Sequence record: NC_007023.1 | From: Escherichia phage RB43 | Length of the DNA: 64,000 nucleotides | Direction: 5' to 3' (one strand) | Shown: positions 6,423 through 62,325 of the stretch, piece after piece | How the letters are laid out: every line of letters starts with the position of its first letter | Position numbering within the stretch: position 1 is the stretch's first letter | The notes under the pieces: generated by a model | Told to the model about the DNA's origin: nothing | The model's input: only the letters and a program-made list of their open reading frames with translations | Databases searched by the model: none | Position numbers and translations under genes: made by a program

Positions 6423-7085
6423 TTAAAAGTTAATTACACTAAGCACGTTAGCTTTCAATTCACTAAGCGTACCATTATTTAGGATGATAATATCAGTTGG
6501 TTGAGGGTTCAAACCTTTCTCAGTTGAATGGCTGTCATCCTCTCCGGTTTTCTCGTTCGATGAATACGAACTTAGGCCCCGAACTTGCTCAGGTATTTTA
6601 TATTCATGTTTTTGTCGAACATCCGTAATGATAAAGTTATCTTTATCGGAACGCAACATTTTCTTCAATACAATATCGACCCATACAATATCGTTATGAT
6701 TACACACGATATCAGTACCGAAAACCTGCATCAGTCGGCGTATTGTCCAGGGCTGTGTATTGGTTCTACAGATTTCATATACTGCTGTATCAACAGCACC
6801 AAGCCAATAGCCCCGCTTCTCTAACCGCTTAACCCCGAAGTCGAAGACTTTTAGTGCATCTTCGTTAGACATCAACAGGGGCGCTTCTCGATCGCCTGTA
6901 TAGAATGGGTTGGTTTTAGTCAGTTCACGCAAGTAACGGTTTCCCGATTCCTTCATCCCGTCCGACAGAATACTTTTGATCTCGTCAGCGAGCGCGAACG
7001 CTTCGACGTTTTGATAGTCATCTAAAACGAACTGGGTAGCGGTGTCTTTACCCGTTCGTTTTTTACCACAAATGCAATAAATCAT
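6423..7085 (-). CDS. 1: deoxynucleoside monophosphate kinase
   Basis: P-loop GKKRTGKDT; RRLMQVFGTD, ITDVRQKHE, NNGTLSEL match T4 gp1. Confidence 0.85.
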   Translation of the reverse strand: MIYCICGKKRTGKDTATQFVLDDYQNVEAFALADEIKSILSDGMKESGNRYLRELTKTNPFYTGDREAPLLMSNEDALKVFDFGVKRLEKRGYWLGAVDTAVYEICRTNTQPWTIRRLMQVFGTDIVCNHNDIVWVDIVLKKMLRSDKDNFIITDVRQKHEYKIPEQVRGLSSYSSNEKTGEDDSHSTEKGLNPQPTDIIILNNGTLSELKANVLSVINF

Positions 7086-33055: not shown

Positions 33056-35050
33056 ATGGCTTTACAATCTCCAGGTATTGAAACCAAAGAAACATCGGTA
33101 CAATCTACCGTTGTTCGAAATTCAACTGGTCGCGCTGCCATTGTTGGTAAATTTTCATGGGGGCCAGCTTATCAGATCCGTCAGATTTCTAATGAAGTCG
33201 AACTGGTAAACTATTTTGGTGCTCCAGACAACCTAACCGCTGACTATTTCATGAGTGCTGTTAACTTCTTGCAGTACGGTAATGATCTCCGTCTGGTTCG
33301 TGTTGTTGATAAAGATGCCGCAAAAAACGCAAGCGCAATTTTTAACCAGATTAAAACAACTATCGCATCACAGGGTTCTAACTATAACGTTGGCGACGTG
33401 ATCAAGGTAAAATATAGCAACACCGTAGTAGAAGAAAACGGTAAAGTAACTCAGGTTGACAGTAACGGTAAGATCCTTGCGGTAACTATCCCCAAGCGAA
33501 AAAAATCGTTGCTCGTGCTAAACAGATCGGTACTTACCCAGATATTTCTACTGGTTGGAACTACTGAAATTGTTTCTCAGTCTTCCGGTGTATCTGCGTC
33601 AATCACGATCGATGGTATCGAAAGCGATTCTGGGATCACTCTGTTGAACCTGGACATTGCAAAAGAAACCATTCAGGGAACTTCGTTCCAGACGCTGACC
33701 CAGAAATATCAGATCCCGTCTGTTGTGGCTCTGTATCCTGGTGAACTGGGTTCTACTGTACAGGTAGAGATCATTTCCAAAGCTGCTTACGACACTGGCG
33801 CTATGATTTCCGGCTATCCTTCTGGGATCTCCGTTAAAAACAGCGGTCGTTCTGTGATGACCTATGGTCCACAAACCGATAATCAGTACGCTTTTGTTGT
33901 GCGTCGTGGTGGTATTGTACAAGAATCTTTCATCGTGTCAACCGATAAAACCGATAAAGATATCTATGGCGTAAATATCTACATGGATGACTTTTTCGCG
34001 AACGGTGGTTCTCAGTACGTATTCGGTACTTCTATGAACTGGCCTAAAGGTTTCTCCGGTATTCTGGAATTTGGCGGCGGTCTGTCTTCAAACGACACCG
34101 TAGGCGCTGATGAACTGATGACGGGTTGGGATATGTTCGCAGACCGCGAAGCCTTACACGTTCCGCTGCTGATTGCAGGTGGCTGTGCTGGTGAAAGCGT
34201 GGAAATCGCTTCTACTGTTCAGAAACATGTTATTTCAATCGGTGATGAACGTCAAGACTGTACGGTTTTCGTATCGCCTCCGCGCTCTCTTCTGGTTAAT
34301 ATTCCGCTGGCAACTGCGGTTGATAACATCGTTGAATGGCGTACTGGTTATAAAATCAGTGGTGGTACTCCGGTAGACAATAACCTGAACGTAAGTTCAA
34401 GCTATGGCTTCCTGGATGGTAACTATAAATATCAGTATGATAAATACAATGACGTGAACCGTTGGGTTCCGCTGGCAGGTGATATCGCTGGCCTGTGTGT
34501 TTACACTGATAGCGTTGCTAACCCGTGGATGTCTCCGGCTGGTTATAACCGTGGTCAGATCCGTAACTGTATTAAACTGGCTATTGAACCGCGCACAGCA
34601 CACCGTGACGCGATGTATCAGGTTCAGATTAACCCGGTAACTGGTTTTGCAGGTGGCTCTGGTTTCGTTCTGTACGGTGATAAAACACTGACTAGCGTTC
34701 CAAGTCCGTTCGATCGCATAAACGTTCGTCGCTTGTTCAACATGATCAAGAAAGACATTGGCGATAATGCGAAATACAAACTGTTCGAAAACAACGACGA
34801 TTTCACCCGTGCTTCGTTCCGTATGGATACTGGTCAGTACATGACGAATATTCGTGCGCTGGGTGGTTGCTATGATTACCGTGTAATCTGCGACACCACG
34901 AACAACACACCAGACGTAATCGATCGTAACGAGTTTGTAGCGACTGTTTACGTGAAACCGCCTCGTTCTATCAACTACATCACTCTGAACTTCGTAGCAA
35001 CGTCTACAGGTGCGGATTTCGATGAATTGGTAGGCCCACAAGCCGTATAA
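33056..35050 (+). CDS. 18: tail sheath protein gp18 (about 22-codon segment out of frame relative to T4)
   Basis: Strong match to T4 gp18 throughout except codons at 33494-33562, where the alternative frame gives the conserved AKKIVARAKQIGTYPDISTGW. Confidence 0.9.
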   Translation: MALQSPGIETKETSVQSTVVRNSTGRAAIVGKFSWGPAYQIRQISNEVELVNYFGAPDNLTADYFMSAVNFLQYGNDLRLVRVVDKDAAKNASAIFNQIKTTIASQGSNYNVGDVIKVKYSNTVVEENGKVTQVDSNGKILAVTIPKRKKSLLVLNRSVLTQIFLLVGTTEIVSQSSGVSASITIDGIESDSGITLLNLDIAKETIQGTSFQTLTQKYQIPSVVALYPGELGSTVQVEIISKAAYDTGAMISGYPSGISVKNSGRSVMTYGPQTDNQYAFVVRRGGIVQESFIVSTDKTDKDIYGVNIYMDDFFANGGSQYVFGTSMNWPKGFSGILEFGGGLSSNDTVGADELMTGWDMFADREALHVPLLIAGGCAGESVEIASTVQKHVISIGDERQDCTVFVSPPRSLLVNIPLATAVDNIVEWRTGYKISGGTPVDNNLNVSSSYGFLDGNYKYQYDKYNDVNRWVPLAGDIAGLCVYTDSVANPWMSPAGYNRGQIRNCIKLAIEPRTAHRDAMYQVQINPVTGFAGGSGFVLYGDKTLTSVPSPFDRINVRRLFNMIKKDIGDNAKYKLFENNDDFTRASFRMDTGQYMTNIRALGGCYDYRVICDTTNNTPDVIDRNEFVATVYVKPPRSINYITLNFVATSTGADFDELVGPQAV

Positions 35051-45375: not shown

Positions 45376-46296
45376 ATGAAAATTGATTACGAATTGGTAG
45401 AAGGGTTCCGTGCTCTGCCTACTAAAGAACAGAAAGGCGCACTGGCTGACTACGCTCAAAGCACCTTTGAAGTAAAATTGAACAAACAAAAATCATTCGA
45501 TAACATGCTGGCTGATCTGGAAGCTGCTGTACCAGCGGAAGAAGAAAAACCGGAACTGCTGATTGATTCCCCAGAATCCGCGATCGTTTCGTACACTGGT
45601 AGCGTTGCAATGGATGAACCTGTTGTTAACGCTCCGAACATTCCTGATGTTGTTGTCGATGTGTCGCAGGACTTTATGGATTACGTCAAAGACGTTGCGC
45701 CGGAAGTGGCTGATCAGATTAAATTAGTCCCTGATGTTGTTGTCGATGTGTCGCAGGACTTTATGGATTACGTCAAAGACGTTGCGCCGGAAGTGGCTGA
45801 TCAGATTAAATTAGTCCCTGATGTTGTTGTCGATGTGTCGCAGGACTTTATGGATTACGTCAAAGACGTTGCGCCGGAAGTGGCTGATCAGATTAAATTA
45901 GTCCCTGATGTTGTTGTCGATGTGTCGCAGGACTTTATGGATTACGTCAAAGACGTTGCGCCGGAAGTGGCTGATCAGATTAAATTAGTCCCTGATGTTG
46001 TAGAAGCGTCTGTAACCGCTTCTGACGAGTCCAAAGCTGATATGGCATGGTTGGACGGGTTTAGCCCTACAATCGTTCTGATGGGGCGTAGCGCTCGTTC
46101 TAACGGCTATTATACGTGTCCCTGGTGGATCTACGATTGGATTAAGAAAAATCCAGATTGGTACAAAGATCCTGACCAGTGTCCACACTACAGCGCACGG
46201 GATACCCTGAAATCGCTGGTGTACTACATCAAACGTGATGGTCAAGTTACTGTGCGTGAAACGCGCAACAGCAGTTTCGATACCTTCAAATTTTAG
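45376..46296 (+). CDS. hypothetical protein with 4 identical 29-aa repeats and C-terminal PWWIYD domain
   Basis: 306-aa ORF; repeat PDVVVDVSQDFMDYVKDVAPEVADQIKLV x4; C-terminal YYTCPWWIYDWIKKNPDWY. Confidence 0.6.
   Translation: MKIDYELVEGFRALPTKEQKGALADYAQSTFEVKLNKQKSFDNMLADLEAAVPAEEEKPELLIDSPESAIVSYTGSVAMDEPVVNAPNIPDVVVDVSQDFMDYVKDVAPEVADQIKLVPDVVVDVSQDFMDYVKDVAPEVADQIKLVPDVVVDVSQDFMDYVKDVAPEVADQIKLVPDVVVDVSQDFMDYVKDVAPEVADQIKLVPDVVEASVTASDESKADMAWLDGFSPTIVLMGRSARSNGYYTCPWWIYDWIKKNPDWYKDPDQCPHYSARDTLKSLVYYIKRDGQVTVRETRNSSFDTFKF
45643..45990 (+). repeat. perfect tandem repeat, 4 x 87 bp (plus 11-bp partial fifth unit)
   Basis: Units at 45643, 45730, 45817, 45904 identical by eye; in-frame inside CDS. 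Confidence 0.9.
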
Positions 46297-46787: not shown

Positions 46788-47324
46788 TTGTCAGATGGTA
46801 AAGAAATCGAGAACGTTATATTCCTCGATATTGACGGCGTGTTAAATAATATGCGCTCTATGAAATTCGGTGAACATATGGACATCGAATGTGCGCGACA
46901 TCTACGCCGGATCGTCAACCATGCAAATTGTGATATCGTTGTTTCTTCAACGTGGCGCATTGGGAACACGACACACACCCTACGCGAAATCCTGTACCCC
47001 TGGGGCTTGTATCGCGTTATCGGTCGAACCTGTAGCAACATGGTTGGTAATTGTGTGCGTGGTGATGAAATAAAGGCGTGGATCGATACGTTCGGATGTA
47101 AGAACTACATGATCCTTGATGATGATTGTGATATGTTGCCAGAACAAAAAGATCACTTCGTCAGAACAGATCCTGAAATCGGGCTTACCGAAGAACAATC
47201 AACCTTTGCGATCCGCAATATATTTGGAGTAACAACCCCGTTTTGTCCTGAATGCAACGGCTATGGGCGCGTGAACCAATACGATAAATGCGGTAGCTGT
47301 AACGGTAAAAAATTGCGTCTATAA
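46788..47324 (+). CDS. HAD-superfamily phosphatase-like protein with C-terminal zinc ribbon
   Basis: FLDIDGVLNN (motif I), ILDDD, CPECNGYG...CGSCNG; start ambiguous (TTG 46788, or ATG 46775 if A3 run 46782-46784 is read as A2). Confidence 0.5.
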   Translation: MSDGKEIENVIFLDIDGVLNNMRSMKFGEHMDIECARHLRRIVNHANCDIVVSSTWRIGNTTHTLREILYPWGLYRVIGRTCSNMVGNCVRGDEIKAWIDTFGCKNYMILDDDCDMLPEQKDHFVRTDPEIGLTEEQSTFAIRNIFGVTTPFCPECNGYGRVNQYDKCGSCNGKKLRL

Positions 47325-47327
47325 ATA
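47320..47327 (+). promoter_or_regulatory. T4-type late promoter box TATAAATA
   Basis: Exact TATAAATA about 19 nt upstream of ATG 47346. Confidence 0.4.
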
Positions 47328-47345: not shown

Positions 47346-47855
47346 TCAATAATGGCTACTGAAAAATGGACTACGGTTCACCCTATCCCGTGGCGTAACA
47401 CCAGCTTTACCTATCTTCCGTGGTGGATCTATGATATCATCGTTGCTGCTAATACGGCAGGTGGAGATTGGCGTGATTACGCAGAAGAAAAATATGCGAA
47501 AGAATTCGTCACGCTGAAACAAGCATACATCGACTAGACCGATGTTGATTTCATCGAATCTCGCAACGGCTACCTGTACAAACTCAGTGATTTTACTCCG
47601 GCTGATCCGGTTGTTACTATCACCCCGAAAACTGCCCCTGCTGATTTTAAAGTAGGCGATCCTGACCTTGCTGCAACCGATCTGTTTACTATCGATCCGA
47701 GCGGTACGGCTATGACTCTGACTGTGGATTCCTCTGGTCATGCGTCGATCGTTGGCGGTAAACTCCATGCTATAAGCGCTGGTGATGTTGTTGTAACGGC
47801 GACCTCCGGTTCTGTTACTGCAAACCTGACTGTAAATGTTAAAGTTGCTCCATAA
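47346..47855 (+). CDS. late gene: PWWIYD N-domain plus Big_2-type Ig-like domain, interrupted by in-frame TAG (47535-47537)
   Basis: 61-codon ORF ends at TAG; same frame continues 106 codons with ...TVDSSGHASIVGGKLHAISAGDVVVTATSGSVTANLTVNV and no start codon of its own. Confidence 0.5.
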
Positions 47856-49862: not shown

Positions 49863-50783
49863 ATGAAACTTGAATTAAACCGCTTCATCAAAGCCGCTGC
49901 TGCTGGCGACCAGTCAAAATACAAATCCCGTCGCGATACCCTGATTGACGATTTCTGTAATCTGCTGGGGTTCAAGCGCTGGCATACTCCGTCTATGCGT
50001 CCAGACTGTGATCCAAAATGGGATTACTTCAAATGGACTCCCCGCGATCGTGGTTATGTCGATAACGTCCGCGTAATGACATTCACTCATATGTACGCAA
50101 ATGCAATAATAGAAGTTGCCAAACGTAATAATTCTACGTACCCGAACGGGTGGAAGGTTGCAGAAGTCATTGAAACCCTGATGCAACTGCGCCGTGAATA
50201 TAAAGCTGGAATGATGATGCAACTGCGCCGTGAATATAAAGCTGGAATGATACGTAAATTGGAAGAACAATCCGAAAGACATGAATATAAAGAATGGTCT
50301 ATCGTCGCAAAATATCTGCTGAACATCACCTATTCGGTTTTCTGTCGCTTCGGAACAAAAGAAATCGGGTTCGGTTCTCATGATATCATTGCAGAAGCCC
50401 GTCATCGCCTGACATACGCGATCCTGAAAATTCAAAATTCCGGTGGTCTTGTTCTGGCTGCATTCTGTGATGAAATTGTGTACTACGGCGATCAGGTTGA
50501 AGTTGAAGGTGTTCACCACGAAAAATTCAACAAACTTGTGTTCGGACAATATAACAGCTATTCATACGGAAACGATATCCGCGTGATGATGCACCCGCGT
50601 ATTATGCTGGATATGGAAGGGTGGGAACCTGGACACGGGATCGGTGATATCGAAAGCCAGCGTGAACGCCGTGTTCGTTCTGTCGCAAAAGCTCGCGAAT
50701 TGATGACGGGTAGCCTTACTGATTACCTGTTCAGAACAAAAGAAGACGTTGAAAAAGAATTTGTTGACTTGTCGGGCGAATAG
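49863..50783 (+). CDS. hypothetical protein (306 aa) containing a 36-bp tandem duplication
   Basis: ORF; MQLRREYKAGMM / MQLRREYKAGMI duplicated in frame. Confidence 0.55.
   Translation: MKLELNRFIKAAAAGDQSKYKSRRDTLIDDFCNLLGFKRWHTPSMRPDCDPKWDYFKWTPRDRGYVDNVRVMTFTHMYANAIIEVAKRNNSTYPNGWKVAEVIETLMQLRREYKAGMMMQLRREYKAGMIRKLEEQSERHEYKEWSIVAKYLLNITYSVFCRFGTKEIGFGSHDIIAEARHRLTYAILKIQNSGGLVLAAFCDEIVYYGDQVEVEGVHHEKFNKLVFGQYNSYSYGNDIRVMMHPRIMLDMEGWEPGHGIGDIESQRERRVRSVAKARELMTGSLTDYLFRTKEDVEKEFVDLSGE
50181..50252 (+). repeat. tandem duplication, 2 x 36 bp (35/36 identical)
   Basis: ATGCAACTGCGCCGTGAATATAAAGCTGGAATGAT(G/A) repeated head to tail. Confidence 0.85.
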
Positions 50784-55542: not shown

Positions 55543-56973
55543 ATGCAAACTTTTAATGAACTGAATAGCATCATCACCTCAACCGATTCCTACAAAGTGT
55601 CTCACTGGATGCAGTATCCGCAAGGCACTGATGCAGCGATGTTCTATATCGAATCTCGCGGTGGTAAATTTGATGAAGTAGTAACCGCTGGCGTTAACTA
55701 CGTTGCGCGGGTTCTCGCTGAACCAATTACCATGAAGCAGGTTGAGTTAGCGCGGGTACTTTACCGTAAACACTTCGGAAAAGAGATCTTTAACTACGAA
55801 GGGTGGAAAAAGATTGCTGAACTGGGTTACACCCCTGTAATTTTCCGTGCGATCCCAGAAGGTACGGTGTTCCGGGAAAAATGCCGTGCGACTGTGTACG
55901 CCGAAAACGAATTCTCGTGGCTGGCTGGGTGGCTGGAGACAATGACGATTCGCGGTATTTGGTATCCGTCATCTGTAGCAACGCTATCGCGTGAGTGTAA
56001 AAAGGTTCTGGCACACTACCTGGATATGACTTCTGACCTTACTGGCGAAGCATATAACATCACACTGGGTACACGTCTGCATGATTTTGGGGCGCGGGGC
56101 GCGACCTCTGCTGAATCTGCTGGCATTGGTGGGCTGGCACACCTTTATAACTTCATCGGCACTGATACCGTAGAAGGGATGATTATGGCAATCAGCCTCT
56201 TTGCGGATTATCAAACACTGTTTGATGAAGTTGAAAACGTAGAAGTAGCTGGGGTTTCCATCCCTGCTCGTGAGCATTCAACTACGATTTCCTACGGTAA
56301 AGAAAACGAAGACGAAGCATATAAAAACAGCATTGAAATGTTCGGTGATGGGTTCTACGCTTGCGTATACGATTCATGGGACTACAAAGCCGCTGTTGAC
56401 CGGATCGATAGTTATAAAGAGAAAATCATTGCATCTGGCGGTGTGTTGGTAGTGCGTCCAGACTCAGGGGATATGATAGACAACATCATGTACACCTTGC
56501 GCAAACTGGGGCAAATCTTCGGATATACTGTCAACTCCAAAGGGTACAAAGTTCTTCATAACTCTGTTCGTATCATCCAGGGTGACGAGATCCACGGGCC
56601 TGAAACAATCAACCGTGTATTAAGCTGGATGGAAGCGAACAAATGGTCGAGCGAAAACATTGCGTTCGGTATGGGTGGCGGTTTGCTGCAAGAAGTTACC
56701 CGCGATACCCAGAAATATGCTGAAAAACTTTGCGCTATCCGTATCAACGGTGTGTGGAAAGGCGTTTACAAATGCCCGAAAGGTTCGGAATGGAAAAAGA
56801 GCAAGAAAGGTTTATTGATGACCATCACTAACGGGATGGAATTCAAGACAATCGATTCTCTCGAAGAATCTATTCCTGCTGGGTGGTTTGATGCGATGGT
56901 AACTTATTATGACAATGGTTATCTGAACAAAACTGACACTTTAGGGGAAATTCGTGAGCGTAGCCGGATTTAA
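55543..56973 (+). CDS. nadV: nicotinamide phosphoribosyltransferase (NAMPT)
   Basis: TDSYKVSHW, GTRLHDFGARGATS, VVRPDSGD, IQGDEI, FGMGGGLLQ are NAMPT signatures. Confidence 0.85.
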   Translation: MQTFNELNSIITSTDSYKVSHWMQYPQGTDAAMFYIESRGGKFDEVVTAGVNYVARVLAEPITMKQVELARVLYRKHFGKEIFNYEGWKKIAELGYTPVIFRAIPEGTVFREKCRATVYAENEFSWLAGWLETMTIRGIWYPSSVATLSRECKKVLAHYLDMTSDLTGEAYNITLGTRLHDFGARGATSAESAGIGGLAHLYNFIGTDTVEGMIMAISLFADYQTLFDEVENVEVAGVSIPAREHSTTISYGKENEDEAYKNSIEMFGDGFYACVYDSWDYKAAVDRIDSYKEKIIASGGVLVVRPDSGDMIDNIMYTLRKLGQIFGYTVNSKGYKVLHNSVRIIQGDEIHGPETINRVLSWMEANKWSSENIAFGMGGGLLQEVTRDTQKYAEKLCAIRINGVWKGVYKCPKGSEWKKSKKGLLMTITNGMEFKTIDSLEESIPAGWFDAMVTYYDNGYLNKTDTLGEIRERSRI

Positions 56974-61847: not shown

Positions 61848-62325
61848 ATGTACTGGACAAAAGACAAATTCGTGTTTCGTGATGATGAAAGTTTTGGCAC
61901 GGTATACCGAAATTTAGCTTTGCGTGGTAGTGCTTTATCACCAAATCAACTATCGTCTGTTGTAATGCCGATAAAGGTTACTCACTGTGACCGTTTTGGT
62001 GTCAATGGTCTTGTTGATTCCGCTGGCACTTCCTGGTATTCGAACTGTTCTTATCTGTTAGACAACAACGATCGTGATCTCTTCAAGAAAGCTGTCCCAG
62101 TTGTTAAGAAGTCAAGAATCTGGATGTTCAAAACTTCTGGACTGTGCGCATCTTCTGGGACGAGTTTACGTTAATGGAAAACTGGTCACAAAACAGGGTG
62201 ATCTTGAAAAATATCTTCGTAAACAACGTGAAGTTGCGTTGAAAGAAACAGAAAAAACAGTCAATCGGTTGACCAAATCGTTAGCCGAAGAAACAAAAAA
62301 TCTGAAACTGTTACGGGGTGAATGA
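61848..62325 (+). CDS. hypothetical protein; two overlapping frames joinable at A4 run 62130-62133
   Basis: Frame 1 from ATG 61848 ends 62174; frame 2 (62074-62325, coiled-coil-like) overlaps. Confidence 0.3.

What the first reader, a model, noticed from the sequence alone, without database searches (positions are those of the whole stretch)
45643..45990. Perfect 4 x 87-bp in-frame tandem repeat inside a protein that shares a PWWIYD domain with the next late gene
Four units are identical by eye (period 87 bp, 29 aa each), which implies very recent expansion or an assembly artefact. The host protein (45376-46296) ends with YYTCPWWIYDWIKKNPDWY, closely matching FTYLPWWIYDIIVAANTAGGDW at the start of ORF 47346, so the two are paralogous modules. 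Repeat number may vary between isolates.
Basis: seen in the sequence. Interest (0 to 1): 0.6.

Follow-up and report, generated by a model that had tools for sequence, protein, structure and literature searches.

The report
Fourfold repeat in phage RB43 Inh
The published genome of phage RB43 carries four identical in-frame copies of an 87-bp segment in the floppy linker of the minor head protein Inh, where every relative has one; this is an ordinary recent duplication (or possibly an assembly error), but Inh's C-terminal domain turns out to be the same capsid-binding module as in the head-decoration protein Hoc.

Summary
Positions 45643-45990 hold four 100% identical 87-bp units plus an 11-bp start of a fifth (to 46001). 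They are in frame in the 306-aa ORF 45376-46296.

The window is the 2005 Sanger record of phage RB43, and the ORF is Inh ("minor head protein, inhibitor of prohead protease"). All relatives examined have one unit (Inh 176-279 aa): RB43-GVA, GuL6, IME-CF2, RB16, about 60 phage genomes and 94 family representatives.

The unit lies in a hypervariable, acidic linker predicted to be disordered, between Phage_Inh_N and Phage_Inh_C. In single-copy RB43-GVA it is bracketed by a perfect 11-bp direct repeat, which gives a simple slippage or unequal-recombination origin.

Caveat: this record holds many private, clustered, frame-breaking differences typical of sequencing errors. RB43-GVA was assembled from Illumina reads, which can collapse such arrays. 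The true copy number therefore needs reads or PCR.

Best reading: a real, recent and probably neutral linker expansion (about 0.6). The main rival is an artefact (about 0.27). Interest is modest.

The parts
45376..46296 (+). inh gene (306 aa in this record): minor head protein annotated as inhibitor of the gp21 prohead protease
   Evidence: Exact match to AAX78756.1/YP_239210.1 of phage RB43. phrog_1051 E 1.4e-74. Precomputed Pfam PF26097 Phage_Inh_N + PF26098 Phage_Inh_C. Lies next to uvsW, as in T4.
45376..45540 (+). Inh N-terminal three-helix domain (aa 1-55)
   Evidence: Conserved block in alignments A1/A6. AF2 pLDDT about 97 in the 219-aa model.
45541..46032 (+). Acidic, hypervariable linker predicted to be disordered (aa 56-219; 78 aa in single-unit relatives)
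   Evidence: Indel-rich, poorly conserved columns. pLDDT below 50 in the 306-aa model and 48-70 with no secondary structure in the 219-aa model.
45643..45990 (+). Four perfect 87-bp (29-aa) tandem units: 45643-45729, 45730-45816, 45817-45903, 45904-45990
45643..45653 (+). Upstream copy of the 11-bp direct repeat CCTGATGTTGT (encodes P-D-V-V)
   Evidence: Present in single-copy RB43-GVA, one mismatch in RB16.
45991..46001 (+). Downstream (exit) copy of the 11-bp direct repeat, i.e. the start of a fifth unit
   Evidence: Perfect in RB43-GVA; CCCGATGTTGT in GuL6 and Logan contig L004.
46033..46293 (+). Inh C-terminal domain (aa 220-306), homologous to the Hoc capsid-binding domain; holds CPWWIYDWI and RETRNS
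47352..47855 (+). hoc (167 aa in relatives), interrupted in this record by an in-frame TAG; aa 8-76 form the capsid-binding domain (PWWIYD, ESRNG), followed by one Ig-like domain
   Evidence: YP_239213.1 'Hoc' 61 aa. Full-length 504-bp CDS in RB43-GVA, GuL6 and RB16. phmmer to T4 Hoc 293-362, E 9.9e-10.
47535..47537 (+). TAG stop private to this record (TAT Tyr in RB43-GVA and GuL6)

Best explanation
The array is a very recent in-frame tandem amplification (1 to 4 copies) of an 87-bp segment of the inh gene. It is private to the RB43 stock or clone behind the 2005 GenBank record.

Origin (inferred). The ancestral single unit is bracketed by a perfect 11-bp direct repeat, CCTGATGTTGT. Slipped-strand mispairing or illegitimate recombination between these repeats would make the first duplication. 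That creates 98 bp of perfect homology, on which the very active recombination of T4-type phages can add or remove units by unequal crossing-over.

Context in the protein. Inh has two folded domains: an N-terminal three-helix domain, and a C-terminal domain homologous to the Hoc capsid-binding domain (the homology is shown; actual binding to the major capsid protein is inferred). An acidic, disordered, fast-evolving tether joins them.

Consequence. The amplification lies wholly in this tether. It lengthens the tether from about 78 to about 165 residues, raises the mass from 24.7 to 34.4 kDa and doubles the net charge from -15 to -30, without touching either folded domain. It is therefore most likely tolerated and close to neutral rather than a new function (inferred).
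For: - The array is perfect and in frame.
- A single unit is the ancestral state. RB43-GVA, GuL6, IME-CF2, Sanger-sequenced RB16 and all 40 listed phage genomes span about 936-940 bp against 1201 bp of query. The other 119 of the 120 best protein homologues are 176-234 aa. The exhaustive search of 1.84 billion representatives gives 94 family members, and the Inh-like ones are at most 279 aa. The 306-aa protein is a singleton cluster.
- The 11-bp flanking repeat is perfect in single-copy RB43-GVA but imperfect in GuL6, L004 and RB16.
- The unit sits in indel-rich, unconserved columns between two conserved blocks. That region is predicted to be disordered.
- Small tandem peptide duplications occur in the same linker in other Inh proteins, P0198 and P0207 and P0190.
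- This lineage does fix perfect in-frame tandem duplications. The 36-bp x 2 repeat at 50179-50251 is in both the Sanger and the Illumina RB43 records and is absent from GuL6.
- An 11-bp repeat is too short to make a Sanger assembler invent copies from a single-copy template, and a 348-bp array fits inside one Sanger read (inference).
Against: - The array exists in only one record. That record is demonstrably error-rich. Of 37 differences from RB43-GVA in 64 kb, the outgroup GuL6 sides with GVA at 32 and with the window at 1. 21 of the 37 lie within 70 bp of another, against 2.8 expected. They include frame breaks in a baseplate wedge gene and scrambled stretches in the tail sheath gene.
- Four private substitutions lie within 2.8 kb downstream of the array.
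- The genome was finished with PCR gap closure.
- The only other RB43 genome shows one copy.
- No reads are available to verify the copy number.
Confidence: 0.6

Rival explanations
1. Artefact of the 2005 record. The phage has one copy (or fewer than four), and the extra copies arose during plasmid cloning, PCR gap closure or staggered assembly of reads ending inside the repeat.
For: The record carries many private, clustered, frame-breaking differences of the sequencing-error type. The array is unique among all sequences searched. RB43-GVA has one copy. The project used PCR-based gap closure for under-represented regions.
Against: Base-calling errors and copy-number inflation are different failure modes. 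Assemblers usually collapse tandem repeats rather than expand them. From a truly single-copy template, an 11-bp repeat gives no reason for misjoining. 348 bp is shorter than a Sanger read, so spanning reads probably existed. The natural slippage substrate is present, and this lineage has another verified tandem duplication.
Confidence: 0.27
2. The array is real and is also present in RB43-GVA, and perhaps in other close relatives. It was collapsed to one unit by short-read de novo assembly, so it would be a feature of the RB43 lineage rather than of one stock.
For: RB43-GVA was sequenced by Illumina in 2012 (PMC3486835). A perfect 87-bp period repeated four times exceeds typical k-mer sizes and is prone to collapse (established knowledge of de Bruijn assembly).
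Against: Sanger-sequenced RB16 has one unit. Logan contig L004 runs through the locus with one unit and without a break. Relatives at 81-98% identity all have one unit. There is no positive evidence of extra depth.
Confidence: 0.2
3. The expansion is real and selected. With hoc knocked out by the amber codon in the same stock, a longer and more acidic Inh bound through the same type of capsid-binding domain would partly replace the Hoc fibre, or would change the reach of the Inh N-domain.
For: Inh_C is homologous to the Hoc capsid-binding domain. The hoc TAG and the inh expansion are both private to this record. Hoc homologues are characteristically acidic, which has been proposed to aid particle dispersion (PMC10385173). 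The expansion doubles Inh's negative charge.
Against: The hoc TAG lies 28 bp from another private substitution, in the pattern typical of this record's sequencing errors, so hoc may be intact in the phage. There is no evidence that Inh sits on the outer capsid surface. Several Hoc contact residues (T4 Tyr293, His295, Trp306) are not conserved in Inh. There is no sign of selection on the linker, which is the least conserved part of the protein.
Confidence: 0.06

Closest known systems
T4 Inh (gene inh; Pfam Phage_Inh_N PF26097 + Phage_Inh_C PF26098; PHROG 1051)
   Same: Same two conserved domains, same position beside uvsW and upstream of hoc, and late-gene orientation. The C-domain is 53% identical to T4's.
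   Different: The linker is 87 residues longer through four identical 29-aa units. At 306 aa it is the longest Inh-like family member seen; the others are at most 279 aa.
Capsid-binding domain of Hoc (T4 Hoc residues about 281-376; PDB 8t1x, 5vf3)
   Different: Inh has no Ig-like domains. Several Hoc residues that contact gp23* (Tyr293, His295, Trp306) are not conserved. Pairwise BLASTP of T4 Inh against T4 Hoc finds nothing. Binding of Inh to gp23* has not been shown.
Tandem duplications between short direct repeats in T-even phages, and in-frame variable-number repeats in linkers of phage structural proteins (general knowledge, from memory)
   Same: Head-to-tail copies bounded by microhomology, in frame, in a region that tolerates length change. 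Expected to be unstable through homologous recombination.
   Different: Here the copy-number difference rests on two records made with different technologies, not on demonstrated polymorphism.
Domain-number variation in Pseudotevenvirus Hoc (one Ig-like domain in the 167-aa form, two in the 245-247-aa form)
   Same: Length change of a capsid-anchored protein by duplication of an internal module in close relatives.
   Different: Those duplicated modules are folded Ig-like domains and have diverged. The Inh units are unstructured and identical.

Membership tests
Inh (minor head protein / prohead protease inhibitor family) | Phage_Inh_N domain at the N-terminus | tested here: met
   Precomputed PF26097 on P0001 and relatives. 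Invariant N-terminal block in A1. phrog_1051 E 1.4e-74.
Inh (minor head protein / prohead protease inhibitor family) | Phage_Inh_C domain at the C-terminus | tested here: met
   Precomputed PF26098. Invariant C-terminal block. tblastn finds it under inh genes in 1,470 phage records, including T4.
Inh (minor head protein / prohead protease inhibitor family) | Conserved position between uvsW and hoc in T4-type genomes | tested here: met
Inh (minor head protein / prohead protease inhibitor family) | Inhibits the gp21 prohead protease and is present in heads | not testable with these tools
   This is only an annotation carried by database names. No primary paper was found in the searchable library.
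Hoc capsid-binding domain superfamily | Significant sequence-profile similarity to Hoc capsid-binding domains | tested here: met
   hhalign of A6 against A2: 95.6%, E 1.3e-8. hmmsearch of PDB: T4 Hoc is the only significant hit, E 6.2e-5. phrog_1149 E 1.6e-5. Hoc homologue P0155 carries a PF26098 hit.
Hoc capsid-binding domain superfamily | Same fold as the solved T4 Hoc C-terminal domain | tested here: met
Hoc capsid-binding domain superfamily | Conserved Trp-Trp pair and E-S-R-N-G stretch | tested here: met
   WW, E, R and N are invariant in the four-way alignment. Inh has ETRNS where Hoc has ESRNG. The role of these residues in T4 is described in PMC10385173.
Hoc capsid-binding domain superfamily | Binds the centre of gp23* hexamers on the expanded capsid | not testable with these tools
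   Needs binding assays or cryo-EM. The other conserved Hoc contact residues (Tyr293, His295) are not kept in Inh.
Variable-number tandem repeat | Two or more head-to-tail copies of one unit | tested here: met
   4.1 copies, 100% identical.
Variable-number tandem repeat | Copy number differs between isolates of the same phage | tested here: inconclusive
   4 copies in the Sanger RB43 record against 1 in the two RB43-GVA records. The first record is error-rich and the second is a short-read assembly.
Assembly artefact | No individual read or amplicon supports four copies | not testable with these tools

The most novel reading that the evidence does not exclude
Inh is a second Hoc-like protein that docks on gp23 hexamers through a Hoc-type capsid-binding domain and holds its small N-terminal domain on a long acidic tether. 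In the Tulane RB43 stock, loss of Hoc (amber codon) and quadruplication of the Inh tether are linked, with the lengthened Inh taking over vacant Hoc sites or functions. This would recast the 'protease inhibitor' Inh as a capsid-surface decoration whose reach is tuned by repeat number.
Probability: 0.06. Interest if true: 0.6.

Novelty: new member of a known kind. Interest (0 to 1): 0.3.

Why it matters
By itself the repeat matters little. It is a recent in-frame duplication in a tolerant linker of a non-essential-looking head protein, and it may not even survive re-sequencing.

It has practical value as a flag that the reference RB43 record (NC_007023) contains a questionable copy number, a probably spurious stop in hoc and about two dozen frame-shifting errors in this 64-kb stretch alone. 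Annotation and comparative work should therefore prefer the RB43-GVA records or a new sequence.

The more useful by-product is that the C-terminal domain of the poorly understood Inh protein is a homologue of the Hoc capsid-binding domain. Inh is found in about 1,470 T4-type phage genomes. The homology gives a concrete, testable idea of where Inh sits, namely on gp23 hexamers. It also suggests that T4-type phages use this anchor module for more than Ig-domain fibres.

Tried and rejected
- **Junction scans.** I scanned IMG/VR, JGI metagenomes and GTDB genomes for the unit-to-unit junction and found 0 hits. The single-copy control junction is also absent from IMG/VR. These collections lack close RB43 relatives, so the negatives say nothing.
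- **Literature.** Searches for experimental work on Inh, for an Inh/Hoc relationship, or for any mention of the RB43 repeat found nothing relevant. The 2023 Hoc structure paper does not mention Inh.
- **Curated libraries.** The local Pfam and NCBIfam libraries give no family for Inh or for the Hoc capsid-binding domain. The weak Pfam hits to the repeat region (HHH_2 and others, all below cut-off) were rejected as repeat-inflated noise.
- **Pairwise BLASTP.** T4 Inh against T4 Hoc shows no similarity. RB43 Inh against Hoc is only marginal (E 0.001). Profiles and structure were needed.
- **Single-sequence exhaustive phmmer.** The Inh search did not reach Hoc proteins.
- **gp21 cleavage sites.** I considered whether the units add prohead-protease cleavage sites (Leu/Ile-x-Glu, from memory). 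By eye the unit has none. The V-V-E just after the array is not conserved across the family. I did not pursue this.

Full report
**1. The observation**

The sequence at 45643-45990 consists of four 87-bp units, each identical at 87 of 87 positions. The first 11 bases of a fifth unit follow (45991-46001) before the sequence diverges. Tandem Repeats Finder reports period 87, 4.1 copies, 100% matches and score 718. It is the only strong array in the 64-kb window apart from a 36-bp x 2 repeat at 50179-50251.

The array is in frame in ORF 45376-46296 (306 aa). It encodes four copies of PDVVVDVSQDFMDYVKDVAPEVADQIKLV at residues 90-205.

**2. What the locus is**

The window is phage RB43 (Pseudotevenvirus). 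The 306-aa protein is identical to AAX78756.1/YP_239210.1, "Inh minor capsid protein inhibitor of 21 protease", from the 180,500-bp published RB43 genome.

The surrounding genes are uvsY, uvsW.1 and uvsW (minus strand), then inh, two small ORFs, hoc and a deoxyribonucleotidase. This is the arrangement seen in RB16, GuL6 and T4. Inh matches phrog_1051 (E 1.4e-74). In the large protein collection it carries Pfam Phage_Inh_N plus Phage_Inh_C.

**3. Comparison with relatives**

| Comparison | Result |
|---|---|
| Two RB43-GVA records, GuL6, IME-CF2, RB16 and every other listed phage genome | Locus spans 933-940 bp against 1201 bp in the window. For RB43-GVA, GuL6 and IME-CF2 the 261-bp shortfall equals 3 x 87; their Inh is 213-219 aa |
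| 120 best protein homologues | All but this one are 176-234 aa |
| Exhaustive search of 1.84 billion cluster representatives | 94 family members; Inh-like lengths at most 279 aa |
| Cluster of the 306-aa form | Singleton |

One unit is therefore the ancestral state, and the four-copy form is known from this record alone.

**4. Where the unit lies in the protein**

An alignment of diverse Inh proteins shows two strongly conserved blocks, residues 1-65 and the last 82 or so. The segment between them varies freely in sequence and length, and the repeat unit lies inside it.

AlphaFold models agree:
- In the 219-aa form with an 89-sequence alignment, the N-domain (1-55) and C-domain (131-219) have pLDDT of about 96-97. 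Residues 56-130 have pLDDT 48-70 and no secondary structure.
- In the 306-aa form, residues 55-219 are below 50, with only one short low-confidence helix per unit.

The expansion changes the mass from 24.7 to 34.4 kDa and the net charge from about -15 to -30. Small tandem peptide duplications occur in the same linker in other lineages (P0198, P0207, P0190). The linker is therefore a recurrent site of such events, though nothing else approaches 29 aa x 4.

**5. How it arose (inferred)**

In single-copy RB43-GVA the unit is bracketed by a perfect 11-bp direct repeat, CCTGATGTTGT. This repeat is imperfect in GuL6, in Logan contig L004 and in RB16. Slippage or illegitimate recombination between these repeats gives the first duplication. 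The resulting 98 bp of identity then allows unequal homologous exchange to add copies.

The frame is kept automatically, because both 11-mers encode P-D-V-V in the same frame.

The lineage does fix such events. The perfect 36-bp x 2 in-frame duplication at 50179-50251 is present in both the Sanger and the Illumina RB43 genomes but is absent from GuL6.

**6. Real or artefact?**

This cannot be settled without reads, and the evidence points both ways.

*Evidence that raises doubt about the record.*
- The window differs from wild-type RB43-GVA at 14 substitutions and 23 single-base indels in 64 kb.
- The outgroup GuL6 agrees with GVA at 32 of these 37 sites and with the window at only one.
- 21 of the 37 lie within 70 bp of another. 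The expectation is 2.8, and the maximum was 15 in 20,000 simulations.
- They break the frame of a baseplate wedge gene. They also produce short scrambled stretches in the tail sheath, dNMP kinase and a phosphoribosyltransferase-like gene.
- These are base-calling errors in the 2005 record, which was built from plasmid shotgun reads with PCR gap closure.

*Evidence that the array is real.*
- Copy-number inflation is a different kind of fault from base-calling error, and assemblers tend to collapse repeats rather than expand them.
- An 11-bp repeat would not mislead an assembler working from a single-copy template.
- 348 bp fits within one Sanger read.

*The comparison genome is not decisive either.* RB43-GVA was sequenced with Illumina reads (PMC3486835), a method that can collapse a perfect 87-bp x 4 array. 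Its single copy is therefore not firm evidence.

*My estimates.*
- Real in the sequenced DNA: about 0.6 to 0.7. This total includes the small chance that the expansion was selected.
- Artefact: about 0.27.
- Given that it is real, roughly a one-in-five chance that the array is also present but collapsed in the GVA assembly.

**7. The "PWWIYD" partner**

The ORF 47352-47537 is the first 61 codons of hoc. In RB43-GVA, GuL6 and RB16, hoc is 167 aa. In the window it is cut by TAG at 47535-47537, where the others have TAT. A second private change lies 28 bp upstream. This fits the pattern of the record's error clusters, so the stop may not be real.

[quoted passage not shown] In the T4 capsid structure this domain docks on gp23* hexamers using, among others, Trp309 and Trp310 at the start of helix 1, and it has a conserved ESRNG stretch (PMC10385173).

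**8. Is Inh_C the same module?**

| Test | Result |
|---|---|
| BLASTP, RB43 Inh vs RB43 Hoc | E 0.001 (weak) |
| BLASTP, T4 Inh vs T4 Hoc | No similarity |
| 89-sequence Inh profile vs all PDB sequences | T4 Hoc is the only significant hit, E 6.2e-5 |
| hhalign, Inh profile vs 167-aa Hoc family | 95.6% probability, E 1.3e-8, 61 columns |
| PHROG Hoc family 1149 vs Inh | Hits residues 240-298, E 1.6e-5 |
| Precomputed Pfam on Hoc homologue P0155 | Carries a Phage_Inh_C hit |
| Foldseek, both Inh models vs PDB | 8t1x_X ranked first |

The Trp-Trp pair, D-W, T-L and E-x-R-N are invariant across Inh and Hoc of both phages. Hoc residues Tyr293, His295 and Trp306 are not kept in Inh.

Whether Inh binds the same capsid site remains an inference. 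I found no paper that states this relationship.

**9. Verdict**

This is a confirmed, perfect, in-frame tandem array. It is best explained as a very recent and probably neutral amplification in the disordered tether of a known two-domain head protein. The real possibility remains that the copy number is an artefact of an error-rich record.

It is a new instance of a familiar phenomenon, so its interest is modest. The by-products with lasting value are the link between Inh_C and the Hoc capsid-binding domain, and the quality warning on the reference RB43 sequence.

Noticed in passing
window 47352-47855 (TAG at 47535-47537; second change at 47509): hoc is split by an in-frame TAG that is private to this record, with a second private substitution 28 bp upstream (Val in place of a conserved Asp). 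The published annotation lists only a 61-aa 'Hoc'. RB43-GVA, GuL6 and RB16 encode the full 167 aa. This is probably a low-quality read stretch rather than a true amber mutant. A perfect late-promoter motif TATAAATA lies at 47320-47327.
   Followed up: partly
window 50179-50251, in ORF 49863-50783: A perfect in-frame 36-bp x 2 tandem duplication (MQLRREYKAGMM / MQLRREYKAGMI). It is present in both the Sanger and the Illumina RB43 genomes and absent from GuL6, so it is a genuine RB43-lineage duplication in a protein of unknown function.
   Followed up: yes
window-wide, e.g. 14432; 6548-6596; 33493-33559; 55869-55887; 53775; 54519; 55042; 62106-62130; 63180; 63803: There are 23 single-base indels and 14 substitutions relative to RB43-GVA. 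Nearly all are private to this record (GuL6 agrees with GVA at 32 of 37 sites) and they are strongly clustered. They break or scramble a baseplate wedge gene, the tail sheath gene, dNMP kinase, a nicotinate-phosphoribosyltransferase-like gene and several small ORFs. The reference RB43 record needs correction.
   Followed up: yes
relatives of window 47352-47855 (proteins P0143, P0144, P0146 against P0010): Pseudotevenvirus Hoc has its capsid-binding domain at the N-terminus, the reverse of T4. It is followed by one Ig-like domain (167 aa) or two (245-247 aa) in close relatives, so the number of Ig modules varies within the genus.
   Followed up: partly
window 46788-47324: The ORF between inh and hoc combines a HAD_SAK_2 domain (E 1e-28), found in 'Swiss Army Knife' RNA repair proteins, with a DnaJ-type CxxCxGxG zinc-finger tail. 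Its function is unknown.
   Followed up: no
window 45424-45531 (Inh residues 17-52): The Inh N-terminal helical module matches the C-terminal end of an unrelated PHROG of unknown function (phrog_3259, E 1.9e-12). This suggests the small domain is itself a mobile module used in other phage proteins.
   Followed up: no
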